Below, in pieces: positions 6,290-36,329 of a stretch of DNA of 64,000 nucleotides. A program made the translations under genes and the position numbers. The notes under the pieces were generated by a model, which did no database searches, had not been told where the DNA came from, and saw only the letters and a list, made by a program, of their open reading frames with translations. This DNA comes from Escherichia phage ECML-359. The stretch lies in the sequence record OL631482.1; one strand, 5' to 3'. Each line of letters opens with the position of its first letter. Position 1 is the stretch's first letter.

Positions 6290-7108
6290 ATGCTTAAAGA
6301 ACAACTCATTTCTGAAGCTCAGAATATCGATGCTTCCGTTGCTCTCGATAGTATTTTCGAATCAGTTAATTTGTCCCCGGAAGCGAAAGCTACCTTCGGC
6401 ACTGTATTCGAAGCTACCGTCAAGCAACACGCCATCAAACTGGCAGAATCTCACATTCACGCCATCGCTGAAAAAGCTGAAGAAGAAGTCGAAAAGAATA
6501 AAGAAGAAGCCGACGAAAAAGCAGAGAAAAAACTGAAAGAATCTGCCGCTAAATTCCTGGACCACGTTGCTAAAGAATGGCTCGCTGAAAATAAACTGGC
6601 TGTCGACCGTGGCATTAAAGCTGACCTGTTCGAATCCATGTTCACCGGCATGAAAGAACTGTTCGTTGAGCACAACGTTGTTGTTCCAGAAGAATCTGTC
6701 GATGTTGTTGCAGAAATGCAGGAAGAACTGGCTGAACAGAAAGAAGAAACCGCTAATCTGTTCGAAGAAGTTGCTAAGCGTGATGCTTATATCAATTATG
6801 TCCAACGTGAAGTTGCGTTGACTGAAGCGACTAAAGACCTGACTGAATCTCAAAAAGAAAAAGTTGGTTCTCTGGTAGAAGGCATGGAATACTCTGATGC
6901 ATTCGGTACCAAAATTGGCGCTATCGTTGAAATGGTTAAAGGTCAGGTAGAACCCACCAACAAACCAATCACCGAAGCCGCTATAAATAAAAATGTAGAC
7001 GATGCTGCGGCACTGAATTACATTTCAGAAGCAGTTGAAGAAAAAGGCGCCAAGCCTACCCTGTCCTTCGCGGACTTGTCTGCTCTCGCAGCATCACGAA
7101 TTTCTTAA
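6290..7108 (+). CDS. 22: Prohead scaffold protein gp22
   Basis: 272 aa, acidic, coiled-coil-like Glu/Lys/Ala-rich composition; preceded by TATAAATA at about 6253-6260. Confidence 0.85.
   Translation: MLKEQLISEAQNIDASVALDSIFESVNLSPEAKATFGTVFEATVKQHAIKLAESHIHAIAEKAEEEVEKNKEEADEKAEKKLKESAAKFLDHVAKEWLAENKLAVDRGIKADLFESMFTGMKELFVEHNVVVPEESVDVVAEMQEELAEQKEETANLFEEVAKRDAYINYVQREVALTEATKDLTESQKEKVGSLVEGMEYSDAFGTKIGAIVEMVKGQVEPTNKPITEAAINKNVDDAAALNYISEAVEEKGAKPTLSFADLSALAASRIS
6983..6990 (+). promoter_or_regulatory. Candidate late promoter for gene 23, inside the gene 22 3' end
   Basis: TATAAATA about 140 nt upstream of the gp23 ATG; no TATAAATA in the short 22-23 intergenic spacer. Confidence 0.5.
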
Positions 7109-7129
7109 TTTAATAAGGTTATACAACAC

Positions 7130-8689
7130 ATGAAAAAGAATGCATTAGTTCAAAAATGGTCCGCTCTGCTGGAAAACGAAGCTCTTCCGGAAATCGTTGG
7201 TGCTTCTAAACAAGCTATCATCGCTAAAATCTTTGAAAACCAGGAACAAGATATTCTGACCGCTCCTGAATACCGTGACGAAAAAATCTCCGAAGCATTT
7301 GGTTCTTTCCTGACCGAAGCTGAAATCGGTGGTGACCATGGTTATGATGCTACCAATATCGCTGCTGGCCAGACCTCTGGTGCAGTAACTCAGATTGGGC
7401 CGGCAGTTATGGGTATGGTTCGTCGTGCTATCCCGCATCTGATTGCGTTTGATATTTGTGGCGTACAGCCTCTGAACAACCCGACTGGCCAGGTATTTGC
7501 CCTGCGTGCAGTTTACGGTAAAGACCCTGTAGCTGCTGGTGCTAAAGAAGCTTTCCACCCGATGTATGCTCCAAATGCTATGTTCTCTGGTCAGGGCGCT
7601 GCTGAAGCTTTCGAAGCTCTGGCTGCAAGCAAAGTTCTTACCGTTGGTAAAATTTATTCTCACTTCTTCGAAGCAACCGGTGCCGCGCACTTCCAGGCTG
7701 TTGAAGCTGTAACCGTTGATGCTGCTGCTACTGATGCCGCTAAACTTGACGCCGAAGTTACCAAACTGCTCGAAGCTGGTAAGCTGGCCGAAATCGCTGA
7801 AGGTATGGCTACCTCTATCGCCGAATTGCAGGAAGGCTTCAACGGTTCTACTGATAACCCGTGGAACGAAATGGGCTTCCGTATCGATAAACAAGTTATC
7901 GAAGCTAAATCTCGTCAGCTGAAAGCAAGTTACTCCATCGAACTGGCACAGGACCTGCGCGCTGTTCACGGTATGGATGCTGATGCCGAATTGAGTGGTA
8001 TTCTGGCTACCGAAATTATGTTGGAAATCAACCGCGAAGTTATCGATTGGATTAACTACTCCGCACAGGTTGGTAAATCTGGTATGACCAACACCGTTGG
8101 CGCTAAAGCTGGTGTGTTTGACTTCCAGGACCCGATTGATATCCGTGGCGCTCGTTGGGCTGGTGAAAGCTTCAAAGCTTTACTGTTCCAGATTGATAAA
8201 GAAGCCGCTGAAATCGCTCGTCAGACTGGCCGTGGTGCAGGTAACTTCATCATCGCTTCCCGTAACGTAGTTAACGTACTGGCTGCAGTTGATACCTCCG
8301 TATCTTATGCTGCTCAGGGTCTGGGTAAAGGTTTCAACGTTGACACCACTAAAGCTGTGTTCGCTGGTGTTCTGGGTGGCAAATACCGTGTATACATCGA
8401 CCAGTATGCTCGTGCAGACTATTTCACCATCGGTTACAAAGGCGCTAACGAAATGGATGCTGGTATCTACTACGCACCATATGTTGCACTGACCCCGCTG
8501 CGTGGCTCTGACCCGAAAAACTTCCAGCCGGTTATGGGCTTCAAAACCCGTTACGGTATCGGTATTAACCCGTTCGCTGACCCGGTAGCTCAGGCTCCGA
8601 CTAAGCGCATTCAGAACGGCATGCCAGACATCGTTAACAGCCTCGGCTTGAACGGTTACTTCCGCCGCGTATATGTTAAAGGAATTTAA
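7130..8689 (+). CDS. 23: Major capsid protein gp23
   Basis: 519 aa; long stretches identical to T4 gp23 as I recall it (e.g. GDHGY.ATNIAAGQTSGAVTQIGPAVMGMVRRAIP, PKNFQPVMGFKTRYGIGINPFA, YFRRVYVKGI C-terminus). Confidence 0.97.
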   Translation: MKKNALVQKWSALLENEALPEIVGASKQAIIAKIFENQEQDILTAPEYRDEKISEAFGSFLTEAEIGGDHGYDATNIAAGQTSGAVTQIGPAVMGMVRRAIPHLIAFDICGVQPLNNPTGQVFALRAVYGKDPVAAGAKEAFHPMYAPNAMFSGQGAAEAFEALAASKVLTVGKIYSHFFEATGAAHFQAVEAVTVDAAATDAAKLDAEVTKLLEAGKLAEIAEGMATSIAELQEGFNGSTDNPWNEMGFRIDKQVIEAKSRQLKASYSIELAQDLRAVHGMDADAELSGILATEIMLEINREVIDWINYSAQVGKSGMTNTVGAKAGVFDFQDPIDIRGARWAGESFKALLFQIDKEAAEIARQTGRGAGNFIIASRNVVNVLAAVDTSVSYAAQGLGKGFNVDTTKAVFAGVLGGKYRVYIDQYARADYFTIGYKGANEMDAGIYYAPYVALTPLRGSDPKNFQPVMGFKTRYGIGINPFADPVAQAPTKRIQNGMPDIVNSLGLNGYFRRVYVKGI

Positions 8690-8712
8690 TCCTAGATTAA
8701 GTTAAATAAAAA

Positions 8713-8740
8713 GGGACCCTTGAGGTCCCTTTCTTGTTTT
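8713..8740. terminator. Bidirectional intrinsic terminator between gene 23 and the opposite-strand ORF
   Basis: GGGACC-cttga-GGTCCC hairpin flanked by an A-run upstream and a T-run downstream. Confidence 0.8.
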
Positions 8741-9021
8741 CATACCATACCATTTAAATGAACTTCTACCCGGCGCTTGATGAGGTCTCTGAAGTTAACA
8801 TTGTTTTCTTGAAGTTTCAACCAGTTACCATTTTTATCTTTAGTGTGAGTAGAATAATTACCATTCCACCAGAAATCAGTGTCATATGCTAAGTTTTCAT
8901 ATTTTTTAACTAGTTTGTTCAGAGCATTACCATTAACACCATTTGGGTATTTGTTGACCAATGCAATAACTTCAATTTCCAATTTTTTAAAGGTGTTCAG
9001 AAGGAAAGTTGCTTTGTTCAT
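8740..9021 (-). CDS. Hypothetical protein, 93 aa, opposite-strand insert between genes 23 and 24
   Basis: Minus-strand ORF flanked by a bidirectional hairpin terminator (8713-8740) and an early-type promoter with conserved leader (about 9040-9092); no motif recognised. Confidence 0.5.
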   Translation of the reverse strand: MNKATFLLNTFKKLEIEVIALVNKYPNGVNGNALNKLVKKYENLAYDTDFWWNGNYSTHTKDKNGNWLKLQENNVNFRDLIKRRVEVHLNGMV

Positions 9022-9049
9022 TTTTAAACTCCAGGTTTTGTTTGTTAAC

Positions 9050-9092
9050 TCAGTATGGAATCATTATGTCTTATCTTAATCTGGTTGTAAAC
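9050..9092 (-). promoter_or_regulatory. Early-type sigma70 promoter (GTTTAC, 18 nt, CATAAT) with conserved leader
   Basis: Minus strand reads GTTTACaaccagattaagataagaCATAATGATTCCATACTGAGTTA upstream of ORF 8740-9021; coordinates approximate. Confidence 0.6.
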
Positions 9093-9098
9093 AACTTT

Positions 9099-9106
9099 TA
9101 TAAATA
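9099..9106 (+). promoter_or_regulatory. Late promoter for gene 24
   Basis: TATAAATA about 27 nt upstream of the gp24 ATG. Confidence 0.75.
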
Positions 9107-9132
9107 AAGTATATCACAAAAGGAAAGCGCAA

Positions 9133-10413
9133 ATGGCAAAGATTAACAAATTACTGCGCGAGTCAACTATTACTACCAGCAACTCCTTGGGCCGCCCGAA
9201 TCTTGTTGCTTTGACCCGCGCTACGACTAAATTGATTTACCGCGATATCATCGCTGAACAACGTACTAACCAACCTGTTGCTGCACTGTATGGTGTTAAA
9301 TATCTTACTCCTGATAACGAATTCAGTTTCCAGACGGGCGCTACTTATGGAGGTGAAGTCGGTTCTAAAGACCGTACAACTATTCCAGAATTAGCTACAG
9401 CCACTCAGCCTGTTGCTAAAGGCGAATATGTAAAATACCAAAATATCGTTTACAAAGCTCTGGTTGATAATCCATTTGCATCGACCACAGAAACAGTGTT
9501 ATCTGATGTTCTGCAAGAAGGTCTTATTGCATCGACTATTCGTTTAGTTCCTGATGCTGCACACACCGAAAAATTCGAAGCTGGTGATGTTGAAATTAGC
9601 AATGCTGTATTCCAGGTTAATAAATGGAATGCTCCGGTTAAAACACGTAAATTGAAAACTGCATTAACTGTTGAACTTGCTCAGGATATGGAAGCAAATG
9701 GTTTTAACGCTCCTGCATTCTTGGAAGACCTGCTTGCCACTATTATGGCAGATGAAATTAACAAAGATGTTCTTCAGTCTCTTATTACCGTTTCCAAGCG
9801 TTATAAAGTAACTGGTGTTTCTGACAATGGCACCATCGATTTAACATACGATGCAGCCCCAGAAGGTGCACGTAAACTGTACGAACTGGTTTGCGAAATG
9901 AACTCCGAAATTCAGAAAACTACATCTTATTCCGGTACCTTTGTTGTTGCCTCTAGCCGTGTTGCTGCTATGTTGGCCGGTTCTGGTTGGTTGAAACACA
10001 GGCCAGAAGACGAACAGTGGCTCCCCGAAACAGCGTACGGTTATTTGATTAATGGCCTCCCTGTATTCTGTGATGTTAACAGTCCATTGGATTATGTAAC
10101 TGTTGGTGTTAAAGAAAATTACGGCGGAAACGAAGTCGTAGGCTCAATTTTCTATGCTCCTTATACCGAAGGCCTGGACTTGGATGATGAAGAGCACGTT
10201 GGTGCGTTTAAGGTCATTGTGGACCCAGACAGCTTGCAGCCATCTATCTCTCTGATGGTTCGTTACGCACTTTCAGCTAACCCGTACACCGTTGCTAAAG
10301 ACGATAAAGAAGCTCGTATTATCGATGCAACCAATATGGATTTAATGGCCGGTCAGAGCAATATGTCTTATCTGCTCGGTGTTAAACTTCCGCCAATCAT
10401 TTATGAGGCGTAA
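9133..10413 (+). CDS. 24: Capsid vertex protein gp24
   Basis: 426 aa; N-terminus MAKINKLLRESTITTSNSLGRPNLVALTRATTKLIY closely matches T4 gp24 as recalled; TATAAATA at about 9099-9106. Confidence 0.9.
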   Translation: MAKINKLLRESTITTSNSLGRPNLVALTRATTKLIYRDIIAEQRTNQPVAALYGVKYLTPDNEFSFQTGATYGGEVGSKDRTTIPELATATQPVAKGEYVKYQNIVYKALVDNPFASTTETVLSDVLQEGLIASTIRLVPDAAHTEKFEAGDVEISNAVFQVNKWNAPVKTRKLKTALTVELAQDMEANGFNAPAFLEDLLATIMADEINKDVLQSLITVSKRYKVTGVSDNGTIDLTYDAAPEGARKLYELVCEMNSEIQKTTSYSGTFVVASSRVAAMLAGSGWLKHRPEDEQWLPETAYGYLINGLPVFCDVNSPLDYVTVGVKENYGGNEVVGSIFYAPYTEGLDLDDEEHVGAFKVIVDPDSLQPSISLMVRYALSANPYTVAKDDKEARIIDATNMDLMAGQSNMSYLLGVKLPPIIYEA

Positions 10414-11697
10414 ATGCAAAAGATTAATGCACTAATTCACGAATCAACATTAACGGCGGCCAACCAGGTCGCCCGTCCTAATTTGCTTTCTTATACCCAG
10501 GCTACGAATAAACGAATTTTTAAAGCACTCGTGGCCGAACAGAAAACTACCCAGCCTGTTGCAGCCCTGTATGGTGTTCGTGTTCTGAACCCAGATGATA
10601 AAATGACTTATCTCGGTGGAGCAACATTTGCAGGTCAGATTGGTATGTTCGAGCGTAAGAATATTCCAGAATTTACAAACAAAGACGAAGCTTATGCAGT
10701 CGGCGATATGTTCCAGTTTGAAAGTGTTGTGTTCAAAGTTTTGGAAGCATCCCCATTCGCCGGTACACTCGAAACTGATTTAGGTGAAGTTATTTCTGAA
10801 GCCATTGCTGCTGGGCATATAAGAATGATGTCAGATGCTGCTTTCACTGATAAATTTGAAAAGGGGCATCCTGAAATTGCTGAAGCTGGTTTTCGTATCG
10901 ATAAATGGCAGACTGAAGTTAAATCCAGAAAGTTGAAAACTTCTTTAACTGTCGAGCTTGCCCAGGACCTGGAAGCAAACGGTTTTGATGCAACAGACTT
11001 CATCGATAATATTCTCGGCATTCAAATGGCAGAGGAAATTAATAAGGATGTACTGCAATCTCTTATTACTGTTAGTTCCCGTTTCAAGGTGCAAGGTGTT
11101 TCTGAAAAAGGTGTATTGAATCTTACTGACCCGAAATATGATAACGCACAGGACCGCGCACGAACCCTGTATTATTATATGTGTGAAATGAATTCTGCAG
11201 TTCAACGTCAGACTTCGTTTGCTGGTACATATGCAGTTGCTTCTTCCCGTTGTGCAGCTATTTTAGCCGCTTCTGGCTGGGTTGAGAAAAAGGAAGACCA
11301 GGATGAATTGGCCTATGGTGTTCTGAAGAACGGTTTGCCTCTTTACGCTGATATGAATAGTCCATGCGATTATGTTATTGTTGGTGTAAATGCAGATATG
11401 GGTGAAGGTCAGACGGTCGCATCTTTATATTATGCGCCTTATACGGAAGGACTTAGCGAAGTTGATGATGAGGGGGATACCTCGGTTGGGGAATTCAAGG
11501 TTATTGTTGACCCTGAAAGCTTACAGCCTACGGTTGCACTGTTAGCTCGTTATGCTTTGACTGCAAACCCTTACACCGTTGCTAAAGATGATAAAGAAGC
11601 TCGCCTTATTGATGGAGCTGATATGGATAAGATGGCTAACCAAAGCCAATTGAGTTCTTATCTTGGCGTTAAACTTCCACCGCTGGAAAAAGAATAA
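10414..11697 (+). CDS. Second, divergent gp24-like capsid vertex paralog
   Basis: 427 aa, starts one nucleotide after the stop of the first gene 24; clearly alignable to it (MQKINALIHESTLTAANQVARPNLLSYTQATNKRIF..., shared LQSLITVS, TANPYTVAKDDKEARLID) but diverged. Confidence 0.85.
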   Translation: MQKINALIHESTLTAANQVARPNLLSYTQATNKRIFKALVAEQKTTQPVAALYGVRVLNPDDKMTYLGGATFAGQIGMFERKNIPEFTNKDEAYAVGDMFQFESVVFKVLEASPFAGTLETDLGEVISEAIAAGHIRMMSDAAFTDKFEKGHPEIAEAGFRIDKWQTEVKSRKLKTSLTVELAQDLEANGFDATDFIDNILGIQMAEEINKDVLQSLITVSSRFKVQGVSEKGVLNLTDPKYDNAQDRARTLYYYMCEMNSAVQRQTSFAGTYAVASSRCAAILAASGWVEKKEDQDELAYGVLKNGLPLYADMNSPCDYVIVGVNADMGEGQTVASLYYAPYTEGLSEVDDEGDTSVGEFKVIVDPESLQPTVALLARYALTANPYTVAKDDKEARLIDGADMDKMANQSQLSSYLGVKLPPLEKE

Positions 11698-11720
11698 GGG
11701 CCTTGCGGCCCTTTTTTATT
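11698..11720 (+). terminator. Intrinsic terminator after the gp24 paralog
   Basis: GGGCC-ttgc-GGCCC followed by TTTTTTATT. Confidence 0.8.
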
Positions 11721-12723
11721 CACTAATTAATGCAATCCATACATGTCTTAATGTTTCTTTTACATTTGCGATAAGTTGCTTTTTAACTTCAACAGGATTT
11801 TCTGTCTGGGTTAATTCAAGTCCTTCACGACCCGCTTCTTCCAGGATATCCTGAACAGTCAAACCCATTACCTTCCCAAAATCCTTCGGCGATACTTCCC
11901 CAATCTTACTGATAACATTGTTAATACGGTTGACAGTCACATAATCAGTAAACTTCCATAAAACATCCAGGTCTTCCTGGGACAACACAACAGCAGCCTT
12001 AATAGGCTTATCAGACTTTTTCTTTTCGCTGAATTTAGAGTTCTTACATTTAATCGCTACACGCTCGCCGTTAGGTAACCATGCAGGAACATCAGGTTTT
12101 AATACAAATCCTTCAGCAGTGAATACTTTACCTTCCACCTTTGCATCAAAATCAGTGGTATTTGCTGTAGTCAATCCTGCGTTATCCACTGTAAAATTGT
12201 AATCAGGGACCACAGAATCCAGGTCATTAGGGAGCTTAATCAAGTCTTCAAAGCTTCCGGTAGCCAGGCGCGGAGCAACTTTAAACTTATGAATAATACA
12301 AAAGGCTTCCATCAGTGTGTCAGTCAGGACGGATTCAGTTCCATCTTCTTTAGTAACGCGAATATCAAACACATAAAAATCTTTATCACCGTAATCCACA
12401 TTCTTCTGGATACCTGCCCCGGCAAACTCACCATAAATCTGATATGCCTGGTAATTAATATCCTGCAAAAGTTTCTGCACAGATTTAATAGAATCTGCGT
12501 AGTTCTTTAATACAATTTCATAACCATAGAAATCTTCTGCAGGTAGGATAGGTCCAGTGCGTTTCGCGCATGTCACATTGTCTTGTTCAATGATTAATGA
12601 AAAGTTGGTACCATGAATTTTCTCACGAGCTACCCATTCACCGCTGGTGAAGCCTTGCAGGCGAATCTTTTCAATGAACTTGTTATTATAGTGATTTTCA
12701 AGGCTGTTGTATTTCTTAAACAT
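11716..12723 (-). CDS. rnlB: RNA ligase 2 (RnlB)
   Basis: 335 aa; [19 protein letters not shown]...[10 protein letters not shown] (nucleotidyltransferase lysine motif KxHGxN) matches T4 Rnl2 as recalled. Confidence 0.9.
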
Positions 12724-12820
12724 AATCTCTCACTTTTGATGTTATAAATATCATTATAAATTAGACCCGCTATACTTTCTTTCTTTGAAAGGAATTAATA
12801 GTCACAAAGGGTCTAGAACC

Positions 12821-12846
12821 ATTATACCGCATTTTTATTTGAAGCA
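12821..12846 (-). promoter_or_regulatory. Middle-type (MotA-box) promoter upstream of rnlB
   Basis: Minus strand reads TGCTTCAaataaaaatgcgGTATAATGGTTCTAGACCC: MotA-box-like TGCTTCA about 12 nt upstream of TATAAT; coordinates approximate. Confidence 0.6.
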
Positions 12847-12853
12847 AAAAGGG

Positions 12854-13117
12854 TCAGAATTTTACATACAGCATTGGCTTGGATTCTTGCCAATCATAAT
12901 TCCAGGTAAAAGATGTAAATTTTTCTGCTCGCAGAAATTCAGATATCTTTGCGCGGTTTCCTTCTTCATACTCTTTTTCAGAAACTGCCATATTAACAGC
13001 ATCTTTGCCGTTCTCGGCGGCGGCAATAGCCACTTTGCGAAATATAGAAATAAAGTCATTTGCAACTTTATCTTGTGACTCTTTGGCTATTTGGCGTAGT
13101 TCTTCTGCGAATGTCAT
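12854..13117 (-). CDS. Hypothetical protein (T4 24.2 position)
   Basis: 87 aa minus-strand ORF between hoc and rnlB; overlaps next ORF by 4 nt. Confidence 0.5.
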   Translation of the reverse strand: MTFAEELRQIAKESQDKVANDFISIFRKVAIAAAENGKDAVNMAVSEKEYEEGNRAKISEFLRAEKFTSFTWNYDWQESKPMLYVKF

Positions 13118-32589: not shown

Positions 32590-32624
32590 GAATCATTATG
32601 CACTGGGCAAATCCTGTTGTAAAC
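32590..32624 (-). promoter_or_regulatory. Early-type promoter with conserved 23-nt leader, upstream of ORF 32185-32553
   Basis: Minus strand reads GTTTACaacaggatttgcccagtgCATAATGATTCCATACTGAGTTAC. Confidence 0.6.
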
Positions 32625-36269: not shown

Positions 36270-36329
36270 TTTGTTTTCCTCATGTGTCGATGAAATTCAT
36301 TATACACCATCCGTGGTGAAAGTAAACAC

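What the first reader, a model, noticed from the sequence alone, without database searches (positions are those of the whole stretch)
8690..9132. Opposite-strand early gene inserted between major capsid gene 23 and gene 24
Where T4 carries the homing endonuclease gene segD, this genome has a 93-aa ORF on the opposite strand to the surrounding late structural genes. It is driven by a near-consensus early promoter (GTTTAC, 18 nt, CATAAT) and insulated by a bidirectional terminator. An early-expressed gene embedded antisense in a late operon is the typical configuration of host-takeover or anti-defence accessory genes. The protein has no motif I recognise and is not GIY-YIG-like.
Basis: partly seen in the sequence, partly recalled or inferred. 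Interest (0 to 1): 0.5.

Follow-up and report, generated by a model that had tools for sequence, protein, structure and literature searches.

The report
Small early accessory gene between capsid genes
A real, conserved 93-amino-acid gene of unknown function sits backwards between the capsid genes of this T4-like phage, with its own early-type promoter. It is already annotated as a hypothetical protein in over 200 related phages, is dispensable, and resembles no known protein, so it is an ordinary candidate accessory gene.

Summary
The window is a Gaprivervirus (VR7/SP18-like T-even phage). A 93-aa ORF lies at 8740-9021 (-) between gene 23 and the first of two gene 24 copies. Upstream is a T4-type early promoter (GTTTAC, 18 nt, CATAAT). 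Downstream is a bidirectional terminator.

The gene is not new. It is VR7ORF190c / JS98 orf173 / PHROG 6003, labelled "hypothetical" in 237 phage records. It is under purifying selection (dN/dS 0.13-0.19). AlphaFold2 gives a confident small basic alpha-alpha-beta-hairpin-alpha fold with no match in PDB or BFVD. It has no Pfam, NCBIfam or PADLOC hit, and no remote homologue among 1.8 billion representatives.

The 23-24 slot has several states across T-even phages:
- empty;
- this ORF alone;
- segD alone (T4, also on the opposite strand);
- ORF plus segD as an operon (38 records);
- a frameshifted ORF (RB69).

Promoter, 5'UTR and terminator are homologous in all filled states. T4 omics data show segD RNA appearing early, which supports early expression here by homology only. 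One Mosigvirus carries a Dhakavirus-type ORF+segD cassette, so the unit moves between genera. Homologues also occur in unrelated phages, including arrays of small ORFs.

Best reading: a non-essential, moron-like early accessory protein that probably binds a target. Any anti-defence or host-takeover role is untested.

The parts
8708..8734 (.). Bidirectional intrinsic terminator. It ends the late gene 23 transcript on the + strand and the ORF transcript on the - strand.
   Evidence: Found on both strands by the scan. Folds at -15.9 and -17.0 kcal/mol, z = -3.7 and -4.0. The hairpin keeps its position in VR7, JS98, Shf125875, T4 and RB3 with compensatory stem changes.
8740..9021 (-). Coding sequence of the 93-aa protein, stop codon included (VR7ORF190c / JS98 orf173 / PHROG 6003 family).
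   Evidence: ORF list. PHROG 6003 at E = 8.9e-47, full length. dN/dS 0.13-0.19. AF2 pLDDT 93.4, pTM 0.80, order H-H-E-E-H. pI 9.6, net charge about +4.7. GC 30-34% against about 50% in gene 23.
9029..9032 (-). Shine-Dalgarno GGAG, 7 nt upstream of the ATG.
   Evidence: Read from the sequence. The GGAG...AAAATGA context is conserved in VR7, JS98, Shf125875 and upstream of T4 segD.
9063..9068 (-). -10 hexamer CATAAT of the sigma-70 (T4 early-type) promoter. Predicted transcription start near 9056.
   Evidence: The homologous position holds TACTAT or TATTAT with an upstream TG in JS98, Shf125875 and T4.
9087..9092 (-). -35 hexamer GTTTAC, the T4 early-promoter form, with A/T-rich sequence upstream.
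   Evidence: The TTTACA core is invariant in window, VR7, JS98, Shf125875 and T4 (GTTTACA in all but T4, which has ATTTACA).
9099..9106 (+). TATAAATA late promoter of gene 24, back-to-back with the early promoter and 6 nt from its -35.
   Evidence: 20 matches in the window against 4.45 expected. Conserved in all compared phages, including the empty-slot phage RB3.

Best explanation
This is a self-contained, moron-like early transcription unit plugged into the variable slot between late genes 23 and 24.

Proposed sequence of events:
1. Shown by sequence and comparison; activity is inferred. Straight after infection, unmodified host sigma-70 RNA polymerase uses the T4-type early promoter (-35 at 9092-9087, -10 at 9068-9063). 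It starts near 9056 on the - strand and makes an mRNA of about 350 nt.
2. Shown by sequence. The mRNA has a GGAG ribosome-binding site. It ends at the bidirectional hairpin 8708-8734, so it does not run antisense into gene 23.
3. Shown by selection analysis and structure prediction. It encodes a 93-aa, basic (pI about 9.6), soluble single-domain protein: a three-helix bundle with a beta-hairpin. It has no membrane segment and no recognisable catalytic motif.
4. Inferred. The protein acts by binding something rather than by catalysis. The target would be a host or rival-phage macromolecule, possibly a nucleic acid or an acidic protein given the charge. It would give a conditional advantage in host takeover, counter-defence or inter-phage competition.

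The gene is not needed for growth on laboratory hosts. It moves horizontally, sometimes together with the segD endonuclease gene that can sit directly downstream of it.
For: - Anatomy and statistics of ORF, promoter, RBS and terminator.
- Purifying selection: dN/dS 0.13-0.19.
- The same gene sits in the same slot and orientation in Gaprivervirus, Dhakavirus and Mosigvirus.
- Promoter, 5'UTR and terminator are homologous across these phages and T4.
- T4 segD, expressed from the homologous signals, has 'early' RNA. Its protein rises from 1-5 min, whereas neighbouring gp24 rises late (PMC9697503 supplements).
- Accessory and moron-like character. The slot is empty in RB3 and many others, with terminator and late promoter directly abutting. 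There is a GC trough of 30-34% against about 50% in gene 23. Frameshifted or truncated copies exist in viable phages.
- Horizontal mobility. Mosigvirus AV116 has a Mosigvirus backbone (98-100% to Shf125875 in genes 23 and 24), but its ORF and segD 5' half are 96-100% identical to Dhakavirus IME341.
- Homologues in unrelated phages lie in long arrays of small same-strand ORFs (ABPH49, L010, L018) or at a module boundary of a siphovirus-like contig (L019).
- Binding module rather than enzyme. It is 93 aa with a confident compact fold, always stands alone with no fusions, and hits no domain.
Against: - There are no expression data for this phage or genus.
- The -10 is CATAAT, with a non-consensus first base and no TG extension.
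- Conservation of the promoter region could partly reflect the gene 24 late promoter and leader on the other strand.
- The T4 'early' class in the cited study is broad (215 genes, onset within 4 min at room temperature).
- An older review found no segD-specific promoter in T4 and expected very low transcription (PMC2988022).
- Nothing identifies a target. There is no structural or sequence relative of known function, so step 4 rests on context alone.
- Loss in RB69 and absence from Tequatrovirus show that any benefit is conditional or small.
Confidence: 0.6

Rival explanations
1. The ORF is cargo or a partner of the segD homing-endonuclease cassette. It persists and spreads mainly because it is co-converted with segD, or it modulates SegD action, for example through expression coupling or protection, rather than acting on the host.
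For: - In 38 phage records the ORF is followed after 3 nt by a segD-like GIY-YIG gene on the same transcript.
- The ORF plus segD 5' half has crossed from a Dhakavirus-type into a Mosigvirus backbone, replacing the resident allele, which is only 31% identical at the protein level.
- segD+ genomes carry clustered synonymous changes at the 3' end of gene 23.
Against: - No segD turned up in any Gaprivervirus slot examined: those annotated carry only this ORF and none matched the ORF-segD junction query. About 49 Dhaka-type records and the sampled Mosig-type records also carry the ORF without segD.
- T4 has segD without the ORF.
- Homologues in ABPH49-like and siphovirus-like contigs have no neighbouring endonuclease domain.
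- dN/dS of 0.13-0.19 indicates selection on the protein itself.
Confidence: 0.15
2. The protein has a role in head morphogenesis, for example as a chaperone or regulator for gp23 or gp24, as its position between the two genes might suggest.
For: Only the position between genes 23 and 24, kept in three genera.
Against: - It is on the opposite strand, with a sigma-70 rather than a late promoter.
- It is absent from T4, RB3 and most Tequatrovirus and Klebsiella T4-like phages, which build the same head.
- It is frameshifted in RB69.
- Homologues in other phages are not next to capsid genes.
- Its presence does not track the gene 24 duplication: Mosigvirus has a single gene 24.
Confidence: 0.04
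3. The ORF is non-functional. What is conserved is the regulatory DNA (terminator, divergent promoters) or a non-coding transcript, and the open frame is incidental or decaying.
For: Disrupted copies exist in viable phages. There is no known domain.
Against: - Synonymous changes far exceed non-synonymous ones (pS 0.175 against pN 0.037 for window versus VR7).
- The frame is intact from 31% to 100% protein identity across more than 200 records.
- AF2 is confident with only 18 sequences.
- The RBS and start are conserved.
- No Rfam family reaches threshold. The sub-threshold hits cover only the terminator hairpin and its immediate flanks.
Confidence: 0.04
4. It is a glycosyl hydrolase family 25 lysozyme, as annotated in the Escherichia phage EAWsc9 record.
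For: The product name in PQ341120.1.
Against: - There is no Pfam hit of any kind even at E <= 10, and no NCBIfam hit.
- At 93 aa it is far shorter than a GH25 catalytic domain (about 180-200 aa, from general knowledge).
- The predicted fold is a three-helix bundle with a hairpin.
- All other records call it hypothetical.
Confidence: 0.01

Closest known systems
VR7ORF190c (ADR32565.1) / JS98 orf173 (AAU29301.2) / SP18_gp189; PHROG 6003
   Same: It is the same gene. The window protein is 100% identical to proteins of UPEC01 and vB_YenM_P8, 92% to VR7, 61% to JS98 and about 36% to the Mosigvirus allele. Slot and orientation are the same.
   Different: Nothing substantive. None of these has an assigned function, so filing it here names it but does not explain it.
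T4 segD locus (GIY-YIG free-standing endonuclease between genes 23 and 24)
   Same: Same slot and same opposite-strand orientation. The promoter (TTTACA/17/TATTAT with TG), the GGAG...ATGAA start context and the bidirectional terminator are homologous. T4 segD RNA is early.
   Different: The payload is unrelated: hhalign probability 0.7% and no GIY-YIG motif. In some phages both genes are present in tandem, so they are not alleles of each other.
Phage 'morons' (Hendrix/Juhala concept: an extra gene with its own promoter and terminator inserted between two genes of a conserved late operon)
   Same: It is an extra gene between genes that are adjacent in relatives (empty slot in RB3). It has its own sigma-70 promoter and a terminator. 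Its GC is lower than its neighbours'. It is dispensable and laterally transferred.
   Different: Classical morons are in temperate phages and are expressed from the prophage. This one is in a virulent phage and is presumably expressed early in lytic growth. The terminator is also present in the empty slot, so the insert did not bring it in. The definition is taken from general knowledge, not from a paper read here.
Small T4 early effector proteins that work by binding (for example AsiA, Arn, Dmd, Pin)
   Same: Comparable size (about 60-160 aa), early sigma-70 expression, non-essential, stand-alone and non-enzymatic. This is the functional class it most plausibly works like.

Membership tests
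PHROG 6003 (unknown function) | Full-length match to the family profile. | tested here: met
   E = 8.9e-47, residues 1-90 on profile positions 1-90 of 90.
GIY-YIG homing endonuclease (SegD-like) | GIY-YIG catalytic domain, or any similarity to SegD. | tested here: not met
   hhalign of the family profile against T4 SegD gives probability 0.7%. No Pfam hit.
Glycosyl hydrolase family 25 (annotation in EAWsc9) | Match to the GH25 domain model, with a domain of about 180-200 aa. | tested here: not met
   No Pfam or NCBIfam family at E <= 10. The protein is 93 aa and the predicted fold is three helices plus a hairpin.
T4-type early (sigma-70) promoter | -35 GTTTAC, a 17-18 nt spacer, -10 close to TATAAT, and A/T-rich upstream sequence. 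| tested here: met
   GTTTAC / 18 nt / CATAAT. The motif is 15-fold enriched in the window and found only on the - strand. It is conserved at the homologous position in JS98, Shf125875 and T4.
T4-type early (sigma-70) promoter | Transcription starts there in the first minutes of infection. | not testable with these tools
   Only indirect evidence: T4 segD, behind the homologous promoter, is classed as early RNA.
Bidirectional intrinsic terminator | A G+C-rich hairpin followed by a U-run on both strands. | tested here: met
   Compensatory stem changes between genera.
Moron (extra promoter-gene-terminator unit in a late operon) | The flanking genes are directly adjacent in related phages. | tested here: met
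   In RB3, gene 23 and gene 24 are separated by 83 bp, holding only the terminator and TATAAATA. Many Tequatrovirus and Klebsiella phages span 1439-1446 bp against 1801 bp here.
Moron (extra promoter-gene-terminator unit in a late operon) | Base composition differs from the neighbours. | tested here: met
   GC is 0.30-0.34 across 8680-9239, against about 0.50 in gene 23 and 0.39-0.46 in gene 24.
Known anti-defence or host-takeover protein families | Sequence or fold similarity to a characterised inhibitor. | tested here: not met

The most novel reading that the evidence does not exclude
The 93-aa protein is a new-fold early effector that neutralises a specific host defence or host function, or excludes rival T-even phages. 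It is carried on a portable promoter-gene unit that recombines between Gaprivervirus, Dhakavirus and Mosigvirus, sometimes mobilised together with segD. It has also been picked up by unrelated phages of enterobacteria and Acinetobacter.
Probability: 0.3. Interest if true: 0.55.

Novelty: new member of a known kind. Interest (0 to 1): 0.3.

Why it matters
T-even phages carry many small early genes of unknown function, and several of them have turned out to be inhibitors of host processes or defences. This one is a clean, compact candidate:
- it is conserved in about 240 therapeutic-type coliphage genomes;
- it is under purifying selection;
- its fold is confidently predicted and has no known relative;
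- natural knock-outs (RB69) and presence/absence variants are available for comparison.

The comparative picture also shows the 23-24 gap as a conserved expression socket, with promoter, leader and terminator taking different payloads. It gives sequence-level support for a segD promoter in T4, where an earlier review found none. None of this changes current understanding. It is a reasonable entry for a functional screen, not a discovery.

Tried and rejected
- Pfam, NCBIfam and PADLOC scans: no hit.
- PHROGs: only the unknown-function family 6003.
- PDB sequence profile search: only noise at E >= 0.1.
- Two word-indexed profile searches and one exhaustive HMMER search of 1.84 billion representatives found only the same ~84-93-aa stand-alone proteins and fragments of them. 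The two large proteins that scored (P0025, P0026) are repeat proteins whose weak repeated matches add up, so I rejected them.
- hhalign against T4 SegD: unrelated.
- Profile search of all window ORFs: no paralogue.
- Rfam on the slot: only sub-threshold hits on the terminator hairpin and its flanks. Rfam and tRNA scans of the whole window were empty.
- Literature. Nothing was found under the locus names. The AV110 early-protein screen did not include this gene, because it chose genes by homology to T4 early proteins. PhageExpressionAtlas has no data for a relative. The papers by Sokolov 2018, Zuber 2007 and Miller 2003 are not held.
- I considered a link to DNA hypermodification, since the ORF occurs in genera without glucosyltransferases. 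I dropped it because Gaprivervirus differs from RB69-like phages in its modification genes and the pattern follows phylogeny.
- I considered a capsid-targeting or gp21 cleavage motif. An L-x-E motif is present in JS98 but not in the window protein, so it is not conserved (by eye).
- The CUA3 slot is a run of N, so it is uninformative.

Full report
**What the window is.** A 1.8-kb stretch around the finding is 99.2% identical to Escherichia phage EAWsc9 and Yersinia phage vB_YenM_P8, and 94-95% identical to vB_EcoM_VR7, VR20 and VR26. EAWsc9 and VR7 are classified as Tevenvirinae, genus Gaprivervirus. The local gene order is 67-68-21-22-23 on the + strand, then the ORF on the - strand, then two tandem copies of gene 24 on the + strand, then rnlB on the - strand.

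**Check of the observation.**
- The ORF runs 8740-9021 on the - strand, starts with ATG and encodes 93 aa.
- Upstream on the same strand are GTTTAC (9092-9087), 18 nt, then CATAAT (9068-9063). A GGAG lies 7 nt before the ATG.
- The consensus scan ranks this site best in 7000-13000, with 10 of 12 matches.
- The T4-early-style pattern GTTTAC-N17-19-NATAAT occurs three times in the 64-kb window, all on the - strand, against 0.20 expected.
- The hairpin at 8708-8734 is called as a terminator on both strands. It folds with z-scores of -3.7 and -4.0.
- TATAAATA, the T4 late-promoter element, lies at 9099-9106 (+), 6 nt from the -35 of the divergent early promoter and 27 nt upstream of the gene 24 start codon.
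- T4 carries segD in this slot, and T4 segD is also on the opposite strand.

**It is a real gene and already in the databases.**
- The protein matches PHROG 6003 (unknown function) over its full length (E = 8.9e-47).
- The identical sequence is deposited for UPEC01, vB_YenM_P8 and others. Every named cluster member is called "hypothetical" or "uncharacterized".
- VR7 calls it VR7ORF190c, "similar to JS98 ORF173c".
- tblastn finds it in 237 phage records. Thirty-one are at >=90% identity (Gaprivervirus type), 83 at 60-80% (JS98/Dhakavirus type) and 122 at about 36% (Mosigvirus type). One is an Acinetobacter phage at 33%.
- Close pairs give dN/dS of 0.19 (window against VR7) and 0.13 (JS98 against IME341), so the protein is under purifying selection.
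- The single deviant annotation, "glycosyl hydrolase family 25" in EAWsc9, has no support.

**What the protein looks like.**
- AlphaFold2 with an 18-sequence family alignment gives mean pLDDT 93.4 and pTM 0.80. The elements are helix 3-24, helix 31-48, strands 52-61 and 67-71, and helix 77-90.
- Family members are basic. pI is 9.5-9.7 and net charge +3.6 to +5.6 in nine of ten members.
- Invariant residues are K3, F6, the N30-G31-N32 loop, N35, A45 and Q71.
- There is no Pfam, NCBIfam, PADLOC or PDB-sequence hit.
- An exhaustive HMMER profile search of 1.84 billion representatives, and two word-indexed profile searches, find only about 20 clusters of stand-alone ~84-93-aa proteins and their fragments. 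Two repeat proteins scored spuriously.
- There is no paralogue in the window.
- Function therefore cannot be read from homology or fold.

**The slot is a conserved socket with variable payload.** A distant-mode survey and inspection of representatives show five states:

| State | Example | Evidence |
|---|---|---|
| Empty: 83 bp holding only the terminator hairpin and TATAAATA | RB3; many Tequatrovirus and Klebsiella phages have spans that fit | |
| ORF only | window, VR7, JS98, Shf125875, metagenomic T4-like contigs | |
| segD only | T4 | |
| ORF followed after 3 nt by a segD-like gene | IME341, AV116; 38 records contain this junction | |
| ORF broken | RB69 ORF188c/189c (two frameshifts relative to Shf125875); truncated products in 310Ecol104PP and mogra | |

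In all filled states the TTTACA -35 core (GTTTACA in all but T4), a -10-like hexamer 17-18 nt downstream, the GGAG and the AAAATGA start context align. This includes the region upstream of T4 segD. The terminator keeps its position with compensatory stem changes. The slot is also a GC trough, at 30-34% against about 50% in gene 23.

**Evidence on timing.**
- No expression data exist for this genus in the library searched.
- For T4, the supplements of a time-resolved omics study class segD as early RNA and middle protein. SegD intensities are zero before infection, appear at 1-3 min and plateau by 12 min. The neighbouring capsid vertex protein rises at 12-30 min (PMC9697503).
- T4 segD sits behind the homologous promoter, so early expression of the window ORF is a reasonable inference, not a demonstration.
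- The study's "early" class is broad (215 genes).
- A 2010 review stated that no segD-specific promoter could be found (PMC2988022). The alignment and scan here do show one.

**Mobility.**
- AV116 is a Mosigvirus. Its gene 23 and gene 24 flanks are 98-100% identical to Mosigvirus Shf125875.
- Its ORF and the 5' half of its segD are 96-100% identical to Dhakavirus IME341. Its ORF is of the Dhaka type and only 31% identical in protein to the resident Mosigvirus allele. The unit has therefore crossed genera by recombination.
- More distant homologues lie in long arrays of small same-strand ORFs in Acinetobacter phage ABPH49 and two metagenomic contigs.
- Another homologue lies at a tail/replication module boundary of a siphovirus-like contig.
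- This distribution is what one expects of a laterally exchanged accessory gene.

**Most likely mechanism.** I read the locus as a moron-like early unit, as set out in the best explanation:
1. The sigma-70 promoter fires at infection.
2. A short monocistronic mRNA ends at the shared bidirectional terminator.
3. A small basic cytoplasmic protein is made.
4. The protein works by binding a target rather than by catalysis and gives a conditional advantage.

I put about 0.8 on [quoted passage not shown]. I put about 0.4 on [quoted passage not shown], because that last step rests on context alone.

**Rivals.**
- A role tied to the segD cassette (0.15) is favoured by adjacency and co-transfer. It is weakened because each gene commonly occurs without the other and the protein itself is under selection. 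SegD is also reported not to home its own gene (cited in PMC9523250; the primary paper could not be read).
- A head-assembly role (0.04), a non-functional ORF (0.04) and the GH25 annotation (0.01) are each contradicted by tested features.

**Verdict.** The gene is already annotated as hypothetical in all close relatives and belongs to a small orphan family. Its architecture is that of a familiar kind of element, an accessory early gene in a hyperplastic slot. It is a sensible candidate for a functional screen but not a surprising finding.

Noticed in passing
window 8660-8689 (3' end of gene 23); compare L011, L012, L007 with L006, L004, L013: segD-carrying genomes have clustered synonymous changes in the last ~25 nt of gene 23 relative to their nearest segD-less relatives. 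T4 against RB3: TTC CGC to TTT AGA. AV116 against Shf125875: five codons changed. IME341 against JS98: GTA TAT..AAA GGT ATC TAA to GTT TAC..AAG GGA ATT TGA. This looks like target-site immunity, and the window has the segD-minus version. It conflicts with the report that SegD does not home its own gene (cited).
   Followed up: partly
L007 7215-7290 (T4, upstream of segD): T4 has a promoter-like site (TTTACA/17/TATTAT with an upstream TG, 10 of 12) at the position homologous to the window's early promoter. It also shares the GGAG and ATGAA start context. A 2010 review said no segD promoter could be found. T4 omics data class segD RNA as early.
   Followed up: partly
L012 (Escherichia phage AV116), about 1290-1900: This is a mosaic. 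The backbone is Mosigvirus, but the ORF plus the 5' half of segD is 96-100% identical to Dhakavirus IME341. The 3' half of segD is only 61-90% identical, so one recombination breakpoint lies inside segD.
   Followed up: partly
L015 8292-8532 (RB69 ORF188c and ORF189c): The two tiny annotated RB69 ORFs are fragments of this same gene, broken by a +1 and a -1 indel relative to Shf125875 in an otherwise 97% identical slot. This is either a natural pseudogene or an error in the old reference sequence.
   Followed up: partly
window 9133-10413 and 10414-11697: Gene 24 (capsid vertex protein) is tandemly duplicated with no gap between the copies (426 and 427 aa). The same is seen in VR7 and JS98 but not in T4 or Mosigvirus.
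   Followed up: no
window 11696-11713: A second bidirectional terminator (AAGGGCC-TTGC-GGCCCTT) lies between the end of gene 24 copy 2 and the convergent rnlB gene.
   Followed up: no
window 32595-32624 (-) and 36299-36327 (-): These are the only other two exact matches to the T4-type early promoter pattern GTTTAC-N17-19-NATAAT in the window, both on the - strand.
   Followed up: no
window 9009-9107 (+): A 32-aa + strand ORF overlapping the early promoter and ORF start is annotated as a hypothetical protein (ORF013) in vB_YenM_P8. It is probably a spurious call, because it lies across the regulatory region.
   Followed up: no
L001 3741-4022 (EAWsc9 AJENGE_00050): The identical protein is annotated 'glycosyl hydrolase family 25' in this one record. 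No domain or fold evidence supports this, so it is probably an annotation-transfer error.
   Followed up: yes
L019 6001-6255; L005, L010, L018: Family members occur outside T-even phages. One is next to GpJ-type tail genes in a siphovirus-like contig. Others are in long arrays of small unannotated ORFs in ABPH49-like large phages.
   Followed up: partly
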